The position numbers and the translations under genes were made by a program. The notes beneath the pieces are model-generated. The model was not told the origin of the DNA. It searched no databases and worked only from the letters and a program-made list of their open reading frames with translations. This document shows, one piece after another, positions 45,448 to 58,015 of a stretch of DNA of 64,000 nucleotides. This DNA is from an uncultured bacterium (GTDB taxonomy: Bacteria > Patescibacteriota > Minisyncoccia > Phycocordibacterales > PALSA-1337): NCBI GenBank assembly GCA_963851055.1, contig CAWKMY010000005.1:12716-76715 (forward strand), written 5' to 3'. Position 1 is the first letter of the stretch; every line of letters begins with the position of its first letter.

Positions 45448-46110
45448 TTATAACACTTCACCAACTGAATAGAGTTTGTTGAATTCTTCGTATGAAAGAG
45501 CGAAACCGTATATGTCATTAAATAGAGCGTCGAAAGTCTTACCTTGCCCGACTGATTTCAGATTTTTTATCAGCTCAAGCATCTTTGGCTTTCCGAATTT
45601 GTCTACGAGCAATTGAACGACAAACCCGGATTCTGTATATACGCCTTCACCGCCCTTGTCCGTAAATTCCAGAAAAGAAGAAAATTTATTCGGCTTTTTC
45701 TTTTCCTTGTTCTGACCAGAGGTGTAGATTGCCACACCTTCACAGAGCCACATGGGTTTATATTGCCCACCTGAAACTATGTGATAAAAATTGTGGCTTA
45801 CTTCATGCTTTAACAGTGCAAAATAAGTATCAGGCTTATATTTATGGCTGCTCTCTTTCTCTAGATTGTCTTTATCTAAAACATAGGAAGTCCTACCATC
45901 TGACCAACCAACTACCCAGGACTGAGTTTTTTCGCTTTTCAACATATCTATGGTGGCGCGATCAGGCACGATGACCACACGAGGAAGATGGTGGACCCAA
46001 TTGATGCCGTAAAATGAATTCAGGTCATCTATCGATTTCTTGAGGATATTCTCGTAATAATCCTCTTTAGCGGCATTTATCCTAAAGATAGAAAGGTTTT
46101 CTTTTTCCAT
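45448..46110 (-). CDS. putative HExxH zinc metallopeptidase-like protein
   Basis: ALLKHEVSHNFYH contains HExxH. The start is MEKENLSIF at 46110. The longer track ORF (to 46224) merely translates through the tRNA-Ile gene. Confidence 0.55.
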   Translation of the reverse strand: MEKENLSIFRINAAKEDYYENILKKSIDDLNSFYGINWVHHLPRVVIVPDRATIDMLKSEKTQSWVVGWSDGRTSYVLDKDNLEKESSHKYKPDTYFALLKHEVSHNFYHIVSGGQYKPMWLCEGVAIYTSGQNKEKKKPNKFSSFLEFTDKGGEGVYTESGFVVQLLVDKFGKPKMLELIKNLKSVGQGKTFDALFNDIYGFALSYEEFNKLYSVGEVL

Positions 46111-46185
46111 GGTGCGCGCACTAGGATTCGAACCTAGGACCCCACCAGTATCAGTGGTGTGCTCTACCAACTGAGCTATGCGCGC
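46110..46185 (-). tRNA. tRNA-Ile (anticodon GAU), CCA encoded
   Basis: Manually folded. Acceptor GCGCGCA/UGCGCGC, D arm GCUC-AGUUGGUA-GAGC, anticodon arm CACCA-CUGAUAC-UGGUG, T arm CUAGG-UUCGAAU-CCUAG, then A73 and CCA. Confidence 0.9.
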
Positions 46186-46328
46186 AGACTTCGTATAACG
46201 ACCTACCAAAACAGCTATACACACAAATGACCGGAGATATATGCAGAGAGTGGATCAGAGCTGATACCTCAAATCAGTAAGATGTACAATAGCAAAACTA
46301 GGCTTTAAATGCAAAAAGCTATGAATTG

Positions 46329-46411
46329 TGGGCATGAGAGGAATCGAACCTCCATGAGCTAAGCTCACAGCGTTCTGAACGCTGCGCGTCTACCAATTTC
46401 GCCACATGCCC
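46329..46411 (-). tRNA. tRNA-Leu (anticodon CAG), long variable arm, CCA not encoded
   Basis: Manually folded. Acceptor GGGCAUG/CAUGCCC, anticodon arm CAGCG-UUCAGAA-CGCUG, variable arm UGAGCUUAGCUCA, T loop GGUUCGAUUCC. Confidence 0.88.
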
Positions 46412-46544
46412 GTATTTCAATAGAACTTCCCTACTATAGAGCAATTATTGAAAAGAGGCAAAAGACTGTCCATATACGATAAAGGGCCGAGGAGAATATC
46501 CGCGGCCCACACAATTCATCTTTCGTCGCCCGCGATTGCCTTGA

Positions 46545-46781
46545 TTAGTAGCCGGCAAAATGGCAGTATGCCATGGCAATCAGCATCCCGAGGAAAACTC
46601 CAATGGAACCGTAGAAGGCAAACTTCATAACGGGACCAACGGTTTCGCCGAGCCAATCAGGCTTTTTTTTGAAAACCGGCGGTACTTGCTCAATCTCTTC
46701 GAAGATTGGCATTGAGGTTGGGGCCAATCGAATGTGTGGCCTGATGGCACGATTGTAACCCAGTCTTGATCTTGGACTCAT
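46545..46781 (-). CDS. small membrane protein
   Basis: 78 aa with the C-terminal hydrophobic span FAFYGSIGVFLGMLIAMAY. A strong GGAGG lies 4 nt before the ATG, and a near-consensus promoter is upstream. Confidence 0.55.
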   Translation of the reverse strand: MSPRSRLGYNRAIRPHIRLAPTSMPIFEEIEQVPPVFKKKPDWLGETVGPVMKFAFYGSIGVFLGMLIAMAYCHFAGY

Positions 46782-46875
46782 TTTTCCTCCAATGGTTGAA
46801 TTAATTGTTGCGTTCCGCTATTAGTTGCCGGAACGATACTACTGACTACTCTTCACTGCTTTTAAGTCAGGCTAC

Positions 46876-46904
46876 ATCATAGCACACTCATCACCCCATG
46901 TCAA
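46876..46904 (-). promoter_or_regulatory. near-consensus sigma70-type promoter
   Basis: On the minus strand: TTGACA (46899-46904), 17 nt, TATGAT (46876-46881). The spacer ..GGGGTGATGAGTGTGC resembles the spacer of the promoter at 41566-41596. Confidence 0.55.
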
Positions 46905-46974
46905 TACCACATCACGCATTCAGAAAACCCGCAAGGCGCGCGACGAAAAAGGCCTTATCAGAGCCATATTCTGG

Positions 46975-47000
46975 CACGAAAAAACCGCCTCGTGGCGGTT
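46975..47000 (-). terminator. rho-independent terminator just downstream of the 16S processing stem
   Basis: The minus strand reads AACCGCC-ACGA-GGCGGTT followed by TTTTCG (continuous U-run counting the stem's terminal TT). Confidence 0.65.
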
Positions 47001-47009
47001 CTTTCTTTT

Positions 47010-47035
47010 AGCGCTCTTTATTTTGTTCCGTTCAC
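47010..47035 (-). other. 3' strand of the pre-16S processing stem (pairs with 49636-49661)
   Basis: agcgctctttattttgttccgttcac is complementary, with about 2 mismatches, to gtgaacggaacaaaatagaaagcgct at 49636-49661. Confidence 0.75.
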
Positions 47036-47318
47036 CCATGAGCATTCATCGATGATATGCCCATGTGTGCCGGGAATCTTCCCCGGCTAAGTGCTCCCAT
47101 ATGATGGTTGAAGAGCCATTACCCATGCTCTAGAGAGCATATCGACATTTCAGTTAGTGACCCACGAGGGATCAAAAACGTTGTTTCACTTGAAATATTC
47201 CACGAGCAGCTTCCGCTACCCGTGCCTTGTTACGACTTACCCCCTGTCATCGAATTTGCCGTAGGCCCGCATAAAGCGAGACTTCGGGCACCTCCGACTC
47301 CCTTGGGTTGACGGGCGG

Positions 47319-48197
47319 ATTGCGATAACTATTTGTTTCGCGTTCCCCTCCGATGTATATCGGAGCCATACCGCTTCCCATCATTTCACGGCTTTGGACG
47401 TAGCGAGCGGATTTCCCGCACTACGCGAGTCCACAGTTCGTTGATTCATTTTACCTTTCAATTCCTTAATCTTTGATACCCCCTCTAGCGTCAGATGTTT
47501 GCCCTCTGCAACTATTTTCGATACTTGCGAAAAGAGTTTGAAGTTTTTCATCTTCGAAACTGACTGGAGTGGATGCTCTTGGAAGAAAGGAACTATTTTG
47601 TTCAATATATCCCTATGGGATGATACTGTGTAACGATAGCATTGAACGTGGTTACGTCTCTTTTCATTTTGAAAATAGACCGCTCCACATTCTAAGGTGT
47701 CTCTAACTTTCAGAAGAAGCGCTCTGTCGGCTTCTTGCATTTTGATGTGAAAGTGAAGATGAACACCGCTACCTGTACGGTACGATGATGACTTATTGAT
47801 GAGGACGTAAAAACATCCTTCCCCATCCGTAAGTCCAACAATATAATCGGCTGATACCGATTGTGGTTTTGTCCTTCCCATACGATTAATTATAACAAAT
47901 TAAGTTGACGCATGGTACTATGACGCAGCTGACTTCTCACATATCATACTGATATATGAGATCTCCTTGGGTCATTTGTCATTCTATTCCGGCCATCCTG
48001 ATCGAGCTTTCAATGATACTTCCTCATAACTCACCGTATGAGTCGTATCGCTCTTATGTGATTAGGCTGGCTTTTGCTACTAAGATCCTTCACCCATTCC
48101 CTTGCGGTAAATGGATTATCTTTTTGCTATTCCGATATTATCGGAACGTGGACTTTAACCACGTAGACCTTGACAAACTGCCAAGCGCATTTGATTC
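47319..48197 (-). mobile_element. intervening sequence (homing-endonuclease-bearing intron/IVS) in the 16S rRNA at about E. coli position 1398/1399; junctions +/-5 nt
   Basis: The conserved string ..CTTGTACTCA (ending 48198) is separated from CCGCCCGTCA (starting 47318) by 879 nt. That interval contains a LAGLIDADG ORF. Confidence 0.8.
47381..47881 (-). CDS. LAGLIDADG-family homing endonuclease (single-motif type)
   Basis: 166 aa. ADYIVGLTDGEGCFYVLI is a LAGLIDADG motif. The size fits a homodimeric I-CreI-like enzyme. Confidence 0.85.
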   Translation of the reverse strand: MGRTKPQSVSADYIVGLTDGEGCFYVLINKSSSYRTGSGVHLHFHIKMQEADRALLLKVRDTLECGAVYFQNEKRRNHVQCYRYTVSSHRDILNKIVPFFQEHPLQSVSKMKNFKLFSQVSKIVAEGKHLTLEGVSKIKELKGKMNQRTVDSRSAGNPLATSKAVK

Positions 48198-48432
48198 TGA
48201 GTACAAGACTTGAGAACGTATTCACCGCAGTATAGCTGACCTGCGATTACTAGCGATTCCGGCTTCATGAGGTCGAGTTGCAGACCTCAATCCGAACTGG
48301 CGCGCGGTTTCTAATGGTTTGCTCCGTCTTACGACATTGCGTCACGTTGTCCGCGCGATTGTAACACGTGTGTAGCCCAAGGCGTCAAAGGGCCATGCTG
48401 ACTTGGCGTCATCCCCACCTTCCTCCCAGCTT

Positions 48433-48530
48433 GGAAGAGAGGAGTAAGGAGTAGGAAGCAGGGAGAAAGGAGAATCGCATTTGCGATCTCTCCTTACTCC
48501 TTACTCCTTACTCCCTGCTCCCACCCTCTA
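48433..48530 (-). repeat. 98-nt hairpin expansion of 16S helix 40 built from heptamer repeats
   Basis: It is flanked by cccagctt (48425-48432) and aagctggg (48531-48538). Arms: ggagtaa ggagtag gaagcag ggagaaa ggagaat and ctcctta x3 ctccctg ctccc. The centre is cgcatttgcg. Confidence 0.8.
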
Positions 48531-49635
48531 AGCTGGGCGGTCTCGTCTGATACTTGTAACAGACAACAGGGGTTGCGTTCGTTACCCCACTGAAGGGAAC
48601 AGCTCAAGCCACGAACTGACGACAGCCATGCAGCACCTGTCCAGCCGCCTTTCGGCGACCCTAGTTTCCTAGGATCTTCGTCTGGATGTCTAGCCTTGGT
48701 AAGGTTCTTCGTTTATCGTCGAATTGAACCACATGTTCCACCGCTTGTGCAAGTCCCCGTCTATTTCTTTGAGTTTCAACCTTGCGGTCGTACTACCCAG
48801 GCGGATCTCTTAACGCGTTAGCTAAGCCTCGAGGAGGGTCGATACTCCTCAAAGCGAGAGATCATCGTTTAGGGCGTGGACTACTGGGGTATCTAATCCC
48901 ATTCGCGACCCACGCTTTCGTGCTTCAGCGTCAGATTTGGACCAGTTTGCTGCCTTCGCTTTTGGTGTTCCCCATGATATCAACGCATTTCACCGCTACA
49001 CCATGAGTTCCGCAAACCCCTTCCAACCTCTAAGTCCTGCCGTTTCCCACGCAGCTTCCCGGTTGAGCCGAGAAATTTAACGCGAGACTAACAGAACAGC
49101 CTACGCACCCTTTACGCCCAATAATTCCGGATAACGCTCGAGGCACTCGTATTACCGCTGCTGCTGGCACGAGTTTAGCAACCTCTTATTCTCCAGGTAC
49201 AATCAATAGACTTTTTCCCTGGCAAAAGGAGTTTACATGCCGAAGCACTTCATCCTCCACGCGGCGTCGCTCGATCAGACTTTCGTCCATTGTCGAATAT
49301 TCTCGTCTGCAGCCACCCGTAGGTGTATGGACCGTATCTCAGTTCCATCGGTGGGGGTCACCCTCTCAGGTCCCCTAGGCGTCATAGCCTTGGTAAGCCG
49401 TTACCTTACCAACTAGCTGATACCGATCAAGCCGCTCATAGGGCGAAAAAACTTTACTCTTGCGAGACTATCGGGAATTACCTACCCTTTCGGATAGCTA
49501 TGCCCGACCCTAAGATGCGTACTTGATTATTACTACCTCGTCTGCCGGTTGCTCCTTGCGGAGCCCCCTTGACTTGCATGACTTATCCACGCCGCCAGCG
49601 TTCATCCTGAGCTAGAATCAAACTCTTAACTATAA

Positions 49636-57933: not shown

Positions 57934-58004
57934 ACGGAATCGCCCCCAGACCAAACTGTGACGTTTATCGTCGCTTGCCCGAAAGGGATAGGTCTGGGGG
58001 TTTT
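57934..58004 (+). ncRNA. candidate small structured RNA, or merely a terminator-like element
   Basis: The possible promoter is TTGACT (57899-57904), 17 nt, TAGCTT (57922-57927). A 10-bp closing stem cccccagacc (57943-57952) / ggtctggggg (57991-58000) encloses the hairpins gacg-tttat-cgtc and ccc-gaaa-ggg, followed by TTTT. Confidence 0.25.
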
Positions 58005-58015
58005 CGTTACCCTAT

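What the first reader, a model, noticed from the sequence alone, without database searches (positions are those of the whole stretch)
47319..48197. Homing-endonuclease insertion in the 16S decoding centre
The universally conserved string GTACACACCGCCCGTC is split. ..CTTGTACTCA ends at 48198 and CCGCCCGTCA resumes at 47318. The 879 nt in between encode a single-motif LAGLIDADG protein (47381..47881). The site corresponds to about E. coli 1398/1399, next to C1400 and C1402; C1402 is the RsmI target, and rsmI is also in this window. The insert must be removed, or the rRNA fragmented, for a working ribosome. Long protein-coding insertions in 16S genes are a reported hallmark of CPR bacteria. I could not recognise clear group I core elements or a terminal G.
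Basis: partly seen in the sequence, partly recalled or inferred. Interest (0 to 1): 0.6.

Follow-up and report, generated by a model that had tools for sequence, protein, structure and literature searches.

The report
Group II intron splitting 16S rRNA
The 879-base insert that splits this bacterium's 16S rRNA gene at the decoding centre is a compact group II (self-splicing type) intron carrying a LAGLIDADG homing-endonuclease gene; this type is already reported in CPR/Patescibacteria, but this copy has an unusual extra RNA module inside its catalytic hairpin.

Summary
The only 16S gene in the window (minus strand) is split exactly between ..GUACUCA (48198) and CCGCCCGUCA.. (47318) by 879 nt. 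The insert holds an intact single-domain LAGLIDADG_1 gene (47881-47381).

The insert is not a bare endonuclease gene or a group I intron. It is a small group II-type ribozyme. Comparison with 58 inserts at the same site in Patescibacteria genomes shows:
- covarying domains I-III;
- an EBS1 loop (GGUGAGU) that pairs with the 5' exon and covaries with it;
- a domain V hairpin with an invariant CGC triad and a 2-nt bulge;
- a domain VI with a bulged A 7 nt before the 3' splice site;
- a 7-12 nt "5' linker" before the degenerate GUGYG motif.

The ORF fills domain IV. It starts inside domain III and overlaps domain V.

This matches the "group-II-like" insertions at 16S position ~1400 (16IS9) of CPR bacteria (Tsurumaki 2024). 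It resembles the Thiomargarita rns-1396 intron but lies 2 nt downstream. Rfam's RF00029 misses the family.

This copy and about 10% of its relatives carry two covarying hairpins inserted into the domain V stem. I found no precedent for that. Splicing itself is inferred, not shown.

The parts
48198..49633 (-). 16S rRNA 5' exon (E. coli ~1-1398). Its last five bases, ACUCA (48202-48198), are IBS1.
   Evidence: cmscan RF00177, 1240.8 bits; the alignment ends at ..CUUGUACUCA. IBS1 pairs with EBS1 in 40/40 sequences and shows one covarying position.
47319..48197 (-). The whole intron, 879 nt.
   Evidence: Lies between the two SSU matches. 58 related loci have an insert at the identical junction.
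48191..48197 (-). [quoted passage not shown]
   Evidence: Its length and sequence vary among loci, 7-12 nt and about 46 nt in L052. The same feature is described for rns-1396 and for fungal LHE group II introns (PMC4424553).
48186..48190 (-). Degenerate 5' consensus nnGYG (AUGCG), corresponding to GUGYG with the first two positions free.
   Evidence: Columns 22-26 of alignment A4: G-Y-G is conserved and the two preceding positions vary.
47966..48185 (-). Domain I. Closing helices are 48185-48181/47970-47966 and 48178-48165/47985-47974. It also contains internal hairpins and a GNRA-capped arm at 48127-48076.
   Evidence: RNAalifold on 40 sequences, with compensatory changes in most pairs. Coordinates.
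48029..48035 (-). EBS1 loop GGUGAGU, in the hairpin 48042-48023. UGAGU pairs with exon ACUCA. The preceding GG could pair with the first two bases (CC) of the 3' exon.
   Evidence: Pairs 8-12/218-222 of A4 are 99.5% paired. Exon U to A (ACACA) is matched by EBS1 A to U (GGUGUGU) in 4 sequences. The GG-CC pairing is invariant and so untestable.
47931..47965 (-). Domain II, a small hairpin.
   Evidence: Helix 10 of A4: 11 pairs, 8 with compensatory changes.
47925..47930 (-). J2/3 linker AGCUGC.
   Evidence: Conserved unpaired stretch between domains II and III. It lies within the Rfam group-II-D1D4-1 match.
47871..47924 (-). Domain III hairpin (GUC AUAGUA CCAUG ... UAUGG GAAG GAC). Its 3' strand contains the ORF start codon (47881-47879). 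Its loop carries a -10-like TGTTATAAT (47897-47889).
   Evidence: Helices 11-12 of A4. Rfam group-II-D1D4-1 scores 31.6 bits here and 40.8 and 38.3 bits (above GA 35) in L079 and L076. A TAnnnT hexamer is present in 39/41 loci, 6-7 nt from the ATG in 30 of them.
47381..47881 (-). LAGLIDADG_1 homing-endonuclease gene, 166 aa, occupying the place of domain IV. The last 14 codons read through domain V and hairpin A, apparently because of a 1-nt deletion relative to the 152-aa relatives.
   Evidence: Pfam E 4e-20. PDB I-OnuI-family matches up to E 2e-40 to each half of two-domain enzymes. The motif D19-G20-E21-G22 is invariant in 30 homologues. Relatives stop at the UAG inside the domain V 5' strand.
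47398..47429 (-). Domain V main hairpin (CUCGCGUAGU GCGG GAAAU CCGC UC GCUACGU). CGC triad at 47427-47425, 2-nt bulge at 47406-47405.
   Evidence: RNAalifold and pair counts on 38 sequences: 14 pairs, 99.4% paired, 7 with compensatory changes; U-C-G-C is invariant in 50 sequences.
47366..47397 (-). Inserted hairpin A. Its base, CCAAAG/UAUGG, resembles an 11-nt tetraloop receptor. Its loop holds the ORF stop codon.
   Evidence: Found only in the window-type subgroup. Pair 42/62 shows a compensatory change in 3 of 9 sequences, and pairs 41/63 and 45/59 change on one side only. It is also part of the MFE fold. The receptor resemblance is my own reading, not tested.
47348..47365 (-). Inserted hairpin B (CUCCGAU AUAC AUCGGAG).
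   Evidence: 8 pairs, all with compensatory changes among 9 window-type sequences.
47345..47347 (-). GGG that closes the base of domain V by pairing with CUC (47429-47427). In this copy it is separated from the rest of the domain V 3' strand by hairpins A and B.
   Evidence: In introns without the insertion these are pairs 4-6/36-38 of A3, with one compensatory U-A change. The MFE fold of the window sequence alone gives a perfect four-way junction.
47322..47341 (-). Domain VI (GCGA AAC AAAUA GUU A UCGC) with a bulged A at 47326, followed by the 3' tail AAU (47321-47319).
   Evidence: 7 pairs, 5 with compensatory changes, 99.2% paired. The unpaired A lies 7 nt before the 3' splice site. A strict bulged-A geometry is present in at least 47 of 74 distinct relatives.
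47188..47318 (-). 16S rRNA 3' exon, starting CCGCCCGUCA.
   Evidence: cmscan RF00177 model positions 1378-1533, 82.3 bits.

Best explanation
The insert is a mobile group II-type intron of about 380 nt of ribozyme (about 430 nt with the extra module). Its domain IV position is filled by a single-domain LAGLIDADG homing-endonuclease gene.

How it most likely works:
1. The intron is transcribed as part of the pre-16S rRNA and folds into domains I-III, V and VI.
2. The EBS1 loop (GGUGAGU) pairs with the last five exon bases (ACUCA). This fixes the 5' splice site at A1398, upstream of a variable 7-nt linker and a degenerate nnGYG motif.
3. Domain V (CGC triad, 2-nt bulge) provides the catalytic centre.
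4. Domain VI, the 3'-terminal AU and probably the GG next to EBS1 (pairing with the exon's CC) fix the 3' splice site.
5. The exons are ligated to restore ..GUACUCA-CCGCCCGUCA.., the decoding-centre strand.

Because of the 5' linker, the first step is probably hydrolytic rather than lariat-forming. This copy does keep a bulged A in domain VI, so branching is not excluded.

The endonuclease, presumably a homodimer, is most likely made from its own -10-type promoter in the domain III loop as a leaderless mRNA. It would cut intron-less 16S alleles at this site and spread the intron by DNA homing, with no reverse transcriptase involved.

Shown: the anatomy, the conservation, the covariation and the existence of intron-less alleles. 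Inferred: catalysis, exon ligation, the splicing pathway, endonuclease activity and promoter use.
For: Exact junction and intact flanking 16S.

58 related loci have an insert at the identical site, and almost all have intact ORFs.

5' part (exon plus domains I-III, 40 sequences): 69 pairs, 97.0% of cells paired against 33-41% when partners are slid, 55 pairs with compensatory changes, 0/500 shuffles as good.

EBS1-IBS1: 5 pairs, 99.5% paired. The only variable exon base (U or A at E. coli 1396) covaries with EBS1 (A or U) in 4 sequences.

Domains V and VI (38 sequences): 21 pairs, 99.4% paired against 28-43% slid, 12 pairs with compensatory changes. Domain V has a 10-bp lower helix with a G-U wobble at the middle triad position, an invariant UCGC, a 2-nt bulge on the 3' strand, a 4-bp upper helix and a GAAAU loop. 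Domain VI has an unpaired A 7 nt from the 3' splice site, and the intron ends in AU.

Rfam group-II-D1D4-1 matches the domain II-III region at 31.6 bits here and above the gathering score (40.8 and 38.3 bits) in relatives L079 and L076.

The protein is LAGLIDADG_1 with its acidic motif residue invariant.

Intron-less alleles with the same exon sequence are common, and one is colinear with the predicted ligated 16S.

Literature: CPR site 16IS9 has group-II-like insertions with LAGLIDADG_1 and no reverse transcriptase (PMC11270868). A 5' terminal linker, loss of EBS2 and an LHE in domain IV are described for rns-1396 and for fungal rRNA group II introns (PMC13190283; PMC4424553).
Against: Rfam's domain V-VI model RF00029 gives no match up to E=10 here, and none at the cut-offs used (E 0.1 to 1) in 16 relatives. 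The D1D4-1 match in this window is below the gathering score.

The intron does not begin with GUGYG at +1. Its first base varies among relatives.

No stem for domain IV was identified.

In this copy the domain V stem is interrupted by a 50-nt insertion next to the catalytic triad. That could impair catalysis.

There is no RNA-level evidence (RNA-seq, RT-PCR) for splicing or ligation in this organism, and no biochemical data for this family.

The covariation counts come from related sequences, so they overstate the number of independent events.
Confidence: 0.85

Rival explanations
1. The insert is a group I intron carrying the LAGLIDADG gene, which is the usual partner of LHEs in rRNA genes. 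It would be excised by guanosine-initiated self-splicing.
For: LHEs are typically hosted by group I introns. Many CPR rRNA insertions are group I (PMC11270868). Group I introns occur elsewhere in some of the related 16S loci (RF00028 at 47.2 bits in L071 and 42.9 bits in L010, at other positions).
Against: No RF00028 match up to E=10 in 46900-48300. The 5' exon ends in A, not U, and the intron ends in U, not G. The conserved structure found by covariation has group II features: EBS1-IBS1 pairing, a domain V hairpin with a bulge, and a bulged A in domain VI.
Confidence: 0.02
2. The insert is an intervening sequence that is cut out (for example by RNase III) without exon ligation. The mature 16S rRNA would then be fragmented at 1398/1399. 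Alternatively the ribozyme only performs hydrolytic cleavages and ligation fails.
For: Fragmented rRNAs caused by IVS are known in bacteria, and short IVS-like insertions are proposed for CPR 23S genes (PMC11270868). The 5' linker suggests a hydrolytic first step. There are no RNA data for this organism.
Against: There is no long terminal stem between the two ends of the insert of the kind RNase III would cut. The element maintains everything needed to position both exons: EBS1-IBS1, GG facing the 3' exon CC, domain VI and the terminal AU. Hydrolytic group II splicing still ligates exons in the fungal relatives (PMC4424553). A nick between A1398 and C1399 would sit in the single-stranded decoding-site strand with no helix to hold the pieces together; that last point is inference.
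Confidence: 0.06
3. The element is a decaying, non-functional intron, and this 16S copy is a pseudogene or is rescued by another rrs copy elsewhere in the genome. The domain V interruption and the frameshifted ORF tail would be signs of decay.
For: In this copy domain V is interrupted by 50 nt, and the ORF has a 1-nt deletion that changes its C-terminus. Only 64 kb of the genome is visible.
Against: The 16S scores 1240.8 + 82.3 bits with all domains present. The ORF is intact with invariant motif residues. Every ribozyme helix is intact in the window sequence. The domain V insertion is itself conserved and covaries in at least 9 sequences from different assemblies, so it is maintained, not random damage. 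CPR genomes usually have a single 16S copy (PMC11270868).
Confidence: 0.05

Closest known systems
CPR/Patescibacteria 16S insertion site 16IS9 (position ~1400): 'group II intron-like' insertions encoding LAGLIDADG_1 (Tsurumaki et al. 2024, J Bacteriol, PMC11270868)
   Same: Same host group. Same 16S site within the resolution of that study. Same protein family (single-domain LAGLIDADG_1). No reverse transcriptase. The classification as group II rested on Rfam models, and D1D4-type matches are what I also obtain.
   Different: That study gives no secondary structure, splice-site definition or exon-binding pairing. Here the exact junction (1398|1399), domains I-III, V and VI, EBS1-IBS1 covariation, the 5' linker and the ORF overlaps with domains III and V are worked out. 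The domain V-embedded two-hairpin module is not mentioned there.
rns-1396 family: group IIC intron with a single-motif LHE in domain IV in 16S of Thiomargarita and other Thiotrichaceae (Salman et al. 2012; Liu et al. 2026, PMC13190283)
   Same: Bacterial 16S host gene. LHE with one LAGLIDADG motif in domain IV. A 5' terminal linker in all members. No EBS2. Small ribozyme. The EBS1 loop is complementary to both sides of the exon junction (UGUGUGUAC against GUACA|CAC; here GGUGAGU against ACUCA|CC).
   Different: The insertion point is 2 nt downstream (GUACUCA|CCGCCC, not GUACA|CACCGC), with a correspondingly different EBS1. The host phylum differs. 'GUACUCA' exons are absent from their tables. 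Homology of the two ribozymes could not be tested because no rns-1396 sequence was available to me.
Fungal mitochondrial rRNA group IIB1 introns with LAGLIDADG ORFs and 5'-terminal insertions (Toor & Zimmerly 2002; Li et al. 2011; Mullineux et al. 2010; reviewed in PMC4424553)
   Same: Group II ribozyme plus LHE in an rRNA gene. Splicing 1-33 nt upstream of GUGYG. Loss of EBS2. DNA-based homing. The LHE is closest in sequence to fungal mitochondrial LHEs of the I-OnuI/I-LtrI group.
   Different: Those are larger IIB1 ribozymes, mostly with two-domain LHEs, and the linker-bearing ones lack the branch-point A. This intron is much smaller, has a CGC triad (IIC-like, from memory of the O. iheyensis intron) and keeps a bulged A in domain VI.
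Group I introns with single-domain LHEs in rRNA genes (for example I-CreI in chloroplast 23S; I-ShaI in CPR 23S, PMC11270868)
   Same: Same logic of a homing endonuclease nested in a self-splicing intron in a conserved rRNA site. Homodimeric single-domain LHE.
   Different: A different ribozyme class. None of the group I hallmarks are present.

Membership tests
Group II intron (ribozyme) | Domain V: a hairpin of about 34 nt with a conserved catalytic triad (AGC/CGC) near its base whose middle G forms a G-U wobble, a 2-nt bulge on the 3' strand and a GNRA-type loop | tested here: met
   A 33-35 nt hairpin with invariant UCGC. G7-U35 is a wobble pair in 37/38 sequences. It has a 2-nt bulge, a 4-bp upper helix and a GAAAU loop. 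14 pairs, 7 with compensatory changes. In the window copy the basal 3 bp are separated from the rest by a 50-nt insertion.
Group II intron (ribozyme) | Domain VI with an unpaired (branch-point) A 7-8 nt upstream of the 3' splice site; intron ends in AY | tested here: met
   Bulged A at 47326, 7 nt before the 3' splice site. The intron ends in AAU. The domain VI helix has 5/7 pairs with compensatory changes. At least 47 of 74 relatives have a strict bulged-A geometry. A subgroup has no distal helix.
Group II intron (ribozyme) | EBS1 in a domain I loop pairs with the last bases of the 5' exon (IBS1) | tested here: met
   UGAGU (48033-48029) pairs with ACUCA (48202-48198). It is paired in 40/40 sequences. 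Exon U to A covaries with EBS1 A to U in 4 sequences.
Group II intron (ribozyme) | 5' end GUGYG immediately after the 5' splice site | tested here: not met
   A variable linker of 7-12 nt follows the exon. Only G-Y-G of the motif is conserved, and the positions of G1 and U2 are free. The same departure is documented for accepted group II introns (rns-1396 and fungal IIB1-LHE introns). So it argues for the linker subtype rather than against group II.
Group II intron (ribozyme) | Six-domain architecture around a central wheel (domains I-VI) | tested here: inconclusive
   Domains I, II, III, V and VI are supported by covariation. The domain IV position is occupied by the ORF, flush between domains III and V, and no domain IV stem was found.
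Group II intron (ribozyme) | Match to curated covariance models (Rfam RF00029 for domains V-VI; clan CL00102 D1-D4 models) | tested here: inconclusive
   RF00029: no match up to E=10 in the window, and none up to E=1 in L007 or up to E=0.1 in the 16 relatives. RF01998 group-II-D1D4-1: 31.6 bits here (GA 35), and 40.8 and 38.3 bits in L079 and L076.
Group II intron (ribozyme) | Self-splicing or protein-assisted splicing with exon ligation | not testable with these tools
   Only indirect support. Intron-less alleles have exactly the predicted ligated sequence. CPR rRNA insertions are reported to be absent from transcripts (Brown 2015, as cited in PMC11270868).
Group IIC subclass | Small ribozyme (~400 nt), no EBS2, CGC triad, reduced domain I (no IC2) | tested here: inconclusive
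   Size of about 380 nt and a CGC triad fit. No EBS2 was sought systematically. No reference IIC sequences were available for alignment. The literature disagrees on the class of bacterial LHE introns: IIB1 in PMC4424553, IIC in PMC13190283.
rns-1396 group II-LHE family | Insertion between E. coli 1396 and 1397 (GUACA|CACCGC), with EBS1 ..GUGUAC.. | tested here: not met
   The junction here is GUACUCA|CCGCCC, and EBS1 is GGUGAGU. The site is related but distinct.
CPR 16S insertion class 16IS9 (Tsurumaki 2024) | Insertion of 100 bp or more at about position 1400 of a CPR 16S gene, group-II-like by Rfam, usually encoding LAGLIDADG_1 | tested here: met
   Site 1398|1399, LAGLIDADG_1, an Rfam group II D1D4 match and homologues in Patescibacteria. 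The published position is only approximate, so identity of the site is inferred.
LAGLIDADG homing endonuclease (PF00961), single-domain type | One LAGLIDADG motif with a conserved acidic residue; alpha-beta-beta-alpha-beta-beta-alpha core; size ~150-170 aa | tested here: met
   Pfam 73 bits against a cut-off of 23.1, one stretch. It aligns to each half of two-domain LHE structures, E 2e-40. The motif VGLTDGEG has D19, G20, E21 and G22 invariant. The fold was not modelled, and neither activity nor dimerisation was tested.
Group I intron | P3-P7 core, U at the end of the 5' exon, terminal G | tested here: not met
   No RF00028 match up to E=10. The exon ends in A and the intron ends in U in all 58 loci.

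The most novel reading that the evidence does not exclude
In this copy and in about 10% of its relatives, the catalytic domain V, normally the most invariant 34 nt of any group II intron, is interrupted. Two covarying hairpins (50 nt) are inserted in its 3' strand. The insertion point lies between the U that wobble-pairs with the triad G and the GGG that closes the helix, which turns the base of domain V into a perfect four-way junction. Hairpin A carries a tetraloop-receptor-like motif (CCAAAG/UAUGG). If these introns still splice, as their persistence in what is probably a single-copy essential 16S gene suggests, this would be the first natural group II ribozyme with a module grafted into domain V. 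It would also show that a widespread, RF00029-invisible group II family exists in Patescibacteria, a phylum recently reported to lack group II introns (PMC13011429).
Probability: 0.35. Interest if true: 0.6.

Novelty: new member of a known kind. Interest (0 to 1): 0.4.

Why it matters
For the genome itself, the 16S gene is not broken. It carries a mobile intron that has to be removed to rebuild the decoding-centre strand next to C1400/C1402. Annotation pipelines and 16S primers targeting 1392-1406 will mis-handle it.

For the field, there are three points.

1. The literature is inconsistent. One survey calls these CPR insertions group-II-like. A second finds bacterial LHE-type group II introns only in Thiotrichaceae, apart from one Saccharimonadota entry in its tables. 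A third concludes that group II introns are absent from Patescibacteria because RF00029 finds none. The covariation evidence here shows a genuine group II-type architecture that RF00029 misses. It is present in at least 176 species-level genomes.

2. The family combines a 5' linker, which in fungal introns goes with hydrolytic splicing and loss of the branch site, with a retained bulged A. That makes it a natural test case for how 5' splice-site displacement affects branching.

3. The domain V-embedded module, if functional, would widen what the catalytic core is thought to tolerate.

Tried and rejected
Group I intron: sought with Rfam at E up to 10 and not found. The exon and intron terminal bases are also wrong for it.

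Rfam RF00029 (group II domains V-VI): tried on the whole region, on the 141-nt 3' part alone, on a relative without the insertion, and on 16 relatives. It never matched. I therefore relied on comparative structure instead.

RNase III-type IVS: no terminal inverted repeat joins the two ends of the insert.

Pseudo-palindromy of the homing site, expected for a homodimeric LHE: the best symmetry is only 6 of 11 pairs, which is not informative.

Covariation test for pairing between the GG next to EBS1 and the first 3' exon bases: relatives with U instead of C at the first exon base keep GG (G-U possible), so there is no decision.

Only the junction and EBS strings from Liu 2026 Table S4 could be compared.

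The sigma-70 scan needs a -35 box and did not report the -10-only element upstream of the ORF. That element rests on my own count.

A mixed alignment of insertion-bearing and insertion-free 3' parts (A2) was misaligned in the insertion. It was replaced by separate alignments (A3, A5).
Full report
**Observation.** A gathering-threshold Rfam scan of the whole window finds a single bacterial SSU rRNA, on the minus strand, at 1240.8 bits. Scanning the region in pieces shows that the 5' part stops at ...CUUGUACUCA (window 48198). The remaining 3' part of the model (positions 1378-1533, 82.3 bits, E 3e-24) resumes at CCGCCCGUCA (window 47318) (sequence). The 879 nt in between contain one long ORF, 47881-47381 on the minus strand, 166 aa. 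It is a LAGLIDADG_1 protein with a single matched stretch (E 4e-20, 73 bits, cut-off 23.1). It aligns to each half of two-domain LAGLIDADG enzymes of the I-OnuI/I-LtrI group (best E 2e-40). In E. coli numbering the break is A1398|C1399. I take this numbering from memory of the 1392-1406 primer site. It agrees with Liu et al. 2026, who call the junction GUACA|CACCGC site 1396.

**Relatives.** The protein has 887 database homologues. Every named one comes from Patescibacteria/CPR. A scan of one genome per species found 176 confirmed loci, of which 80 were fetched. In 58 of them, simple pattern matching finds an insert of 814-1028 nt at the identical junction..GUAC(U/A)CA | CCGCCCGUCA.., nearly always with an intact ORF. 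Conversely, at least 120 metagenome contigs carry the uninterrupted sequence GTCTTGTACTCACCGCCCGTCAA. One of them, L123, has a 16S that is 89% identical to the window's exon1+exon2 over 1573 aligned positions and colinear across the junction. So the element is present or absent at one precise point, and the predicted ligated product is a sequence that exists in nature.

**The 3' part of the insert.** In 38 relatives, RNAalifold predicts two hairpins.
- The first has a 10-bp lower helix, a 2-nt bulge on the 3' strand, a 4-bp upper helix and a GAAAU loop. The sequence UCGC near its 5' base is invariant in 50 sequences. The G of CGC forms a G-U wobble in 37 of 38. This is the anatomy of group II domain V with a CGC catalytic triad.
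- The second hairpin has a single unpaired A 7 nt before the 3' junction and is followed by AAU. This is the anatomy of domain VI with a branch-point A and a terminal AY.
- Of the 21 pairs, 99.4% of cells are paired, against 28-43% when the partners are slid. Twelve pairs show compensatory changes, and no shuffle out of 500 does as well.

**The 5' part of the insert.** Twelve exon bases plus 320-350 intron bases from 40 sequences give 64 predicted pairs, 54 of them with compensatory changes. After adding the exon pairing, 97.0% of cells are paired against 33-41% slid, again with 0 of 500 shuffles as good. The helices form:
- a large multi-armed domain closed by two long-range helices (domain I, 48185-47966);
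- a small hairpin (domain II, 47965-47931);
- a conserved unpaired AGCUGC (J2/3);
- a hairpin with an AUAGUA/GAAG internal loop (domain III, 47924-47871).

The domain II-III region is what Rfam's group-II-D1D4-1 model matches. It scores 31.6 bits here, below the gathering score of 35, but 40.8 and 38.3 bits in relatives L079 and L076.

**Exon recognition.** A hairpin loop in domain I reads GGUGAGU (48035-48029). UGAGU is complementary to the last five exon bases, ACUCA. The only exon base that varies among hosts (U or A at the position of E. coli 1396) is matched by the complementary change in the loop (GGUGUGU with ACACA) in four sequences. This is an EBS1-IBS1 pairing, and it places the 5' splice site exactly where the 16S alignment does. 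The GG preceding EBS1 faces the first two bases (CC) of the 3' exon. That pairing is invariant and cannot be tested by covariation. A subgroup with U at the first exon base keeps GG.

**The 5' end.** The intron does not start with GUGYG. After the exon come 7-12 variable, A-rich nucleotides (about 46 in L052), and then a motif in which only G-Y-G is conserved. Such a 5' terminal linker is described for all members of the bacterial rns-1396 family and for several fungal and algal LHE-type group II introns. There it goes with loss of EBS2 and, in the IIB1 families, loss of the branch-point A and a proposed shift to hydrolytic splicing (PMC13190283; PMC4424553). The window copy, and at least 47 of 74 distinct relatives, nevertheless keep a bulged A in domain VI. 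A subgroup has lost the distal domain VI helix. I therefore consider hydrolysis the more likely first step, at about even odds, and branching not excluded.

**ORF and ribozyme are interlocked.** The start codon lies in the 3' strand of the inner domain III helix. AUGGGAAGGAC encodes M-G-R-T and is conserved at the RNA level. In most relatives the stop codon is the UAG inside the 5' strand of domain V (GGA CUC GCG UAG = G-L-A-stop). In the window copy the stretch just before domain V is one base shorter (ACUGUGGACUCG against ACUGUUGGACUCG in L004). This apparent 1-nt deletion shifts the frame, so the ORF reads on for 14 codons through domain V into the next hairpin. The tail DSRSAGNPLATSKAVK is thus a translation of conserved RNA, not a conserved protein feature. 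In 39 of 41 loci, a TAnnnT hexamer lies in the domain III loop upstream of the ATG, 6-7 nt away in 30 of them. It is TATAAT in 18 loci, and 18 loci have a TGn extension. In the window it reads TGTTATAAT at 47897-47889. This suggests that the endonuclease is transcribed from its own promoter as a leaderless mRNA. That is inference. The generic promoter scan, which requires a -35 box, does not report it.

**A peculiarity of this copy.** Between the U that pairs with the triad G and the GGG that closes the base of domain V, the window sequence has 50 extra nucleotides forming two hairpins (47397-47366 and 47365-47348).
- The same arrangement occurs in L006, L013, L014, L015, L037 and L081-L085. 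Other sequences at the same point occur in L002, L003 and L051.
- In nine window-type sequences RNAalifold recovers domain V, both hairpins and domain VI. All eight pairs of hairpin B show compensatory changes; in hairpin A one pair (42/62) does, in 3 of 9 sequences.
- The minimum-free-energy fold of the window sequence alone closes CUC with the distal GGG. This gives a four-way junction with no unpaired bases.
- The base of hairpin A (CCAAAG/UAUGG) resembles the 11-nt GAAA-tetraloop receptor (CCUAAG/UAUGG). That is my reading from memory and is untested.
- I found no report of an insertion inside domain V. One targeted search returned only the 3' extension of B.c.I4.
- Conservation of the module in diverged hosts argues that it is tolerated or useful. 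Whether catalysis is unaffected is unknown.

**Rival readings.**
- A group I intron is excluded. There is no RF00028 match up to E=10, the exon ends in A and the intron ends in U.
- Excision without ligation, as for an RNase III intervening sequence, is unlikely. The ends of the insert form no long stem, and the element maintains all the pairings that align both exons. It cannot be excluded without RNA data.
- A decaying intron in a pseudogene is unlikely. The 16S is complete, all helices and the ORF are intact, and the odd features are conserved.

**Comparison with what is known.** Tsurumaki et al. 2024 surveyed CPR rRNA genes. They defined a hot spot, 16IS9, at 16S position ~1400, where 53 insertions were called group II introns by Rfam, 39 of them encoding LHEs (mainly LAGLIDADG_1), with no reverse transcriptase. 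The present element is a member of that class.

Liu et al. 2026 describe the Thiotrichaceae rns-1396 family: a IIC ribozyme, a single-motif LHE in domain IV, a 5' linker and no EBS2. The present intron works like it but sits 2 nt downstream and has a different EBS1. Exons of the GUACUCA type are absent from their tables.

A 2026 survey using RF00029 concluded that group II introns are absent from Patescibacteria. RF00029 indeed gives no match up to E=10 in the window, and none up to E=0.1 to 1 in the relatives tested, although domains V and VI are present by comparative evidence. So the finding is a new member of a known kind. It adds a worked-out structure, a precise site, and one variant feature, the domain V module, that may be new.

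**What is shown and what is inferred.** Shown:
- the split;
- the protein family;
- the recurrence of the insert at one site;
- the existence of intron-less alleles;
- the conserved, covarying secondary structure with group II hallmarks.

Inferred:
- catalytic activity;
- exon ligation;
- the hydrolytic first step;
- endonuclease activity and homodimer formation;
- promoter use;
- the subclass (IIC-like by size and CGC triad; not tested against references).

Noticed in passing
window 47188-47230 (minus strand); related loci L002-L079: The 3' end of this 16S reads ..GCUCGUGGAAUAUUUCAAGU and lacks the CCUCC anti-Shine-Dalgarno sequence. 39 of 45 related intron-bearing 16S genes also lack it. This fits the absence of an SD sequence before the LHE start codon and the leaderless-mRNA idea.
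   Followed up: partly
window 48425-48537 (minus strand): A second, shorter insertion in the same 16S: a 113-nt near-perfect hairpin with GGAGUAA repeats, where E. coli has a short hairpin (about 1160-1180). Folding the 123-nt stretch 48420-48542 that contains it gives an energy of -76 kcal/mol, z -7.9. It is probably an expansion segment or a short IVS.
   Followed up: partly
window 47889-47897 (minus strand) and the equivalent position in 39 of 41 related loci: A conserved -10-type hexamer (TAnnnT; here TGTTATAAT) lies in the domain III loop, 6-7 nt upstream of the endonuclease ATG. This suggests an intron-internal promoter giving a leaderless mRNA.
   Followed up: partly
However, the open frame is only 197 codons and matches profile positions 2-180 of 275. 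The C-terminal part may be missing or in another frame.
   Followed up: partly
window 46110-47000 (minus strand): The 16S is followed by a terminator-like hairpin (46983-47000), then tRNA-Leu(CAG) and tRNA-Ile(GAU). No 23S rRNA is present anywhere in the 64-kb window, so the rRNA genes appear unlinked.
   Followed up: no
window 57942-58005 (plus strand): Rfam match to the DUF3800-IX RNA motif, 55 bits (gathering score 36.8).
   Followed up: no
loci L001, L005, L011, L018-L020, L024, L026, L042, L046, L048, L055, L057, L064, L067, L069, L078, L080: A subgroup of the related introns ends ..CAU and is followed by UCGCCCGUCA instead of CCGCCCGUCA. Either these hosts have U at position 1399, or the 3' splice site is shifted by one base and the mature 16S is one base shorter.
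   Followed up: partly
loci L008, L031, L033, L036, L039, L044, L047, L053, L066 (and L019, L020 and others): In a subgroup the distal helix of domain VI is replaced by a loop (..AAUGUUCCAAAAA..), so there is no bulged-A geometry. This parallels the loss of the branch site in fungal linker-bearing introns.
   Followed up: partly
loci L071 (2225-2592), L010 (798-1261), L084 (1445-1795): Some related 16S genes carry additional introns at other sites. L071 and L010 have group I matches just below the gathering score (47.2 and 42.9 bits). L084 has a LAGLIDADG_3 gene downstream.
   Followed up: no
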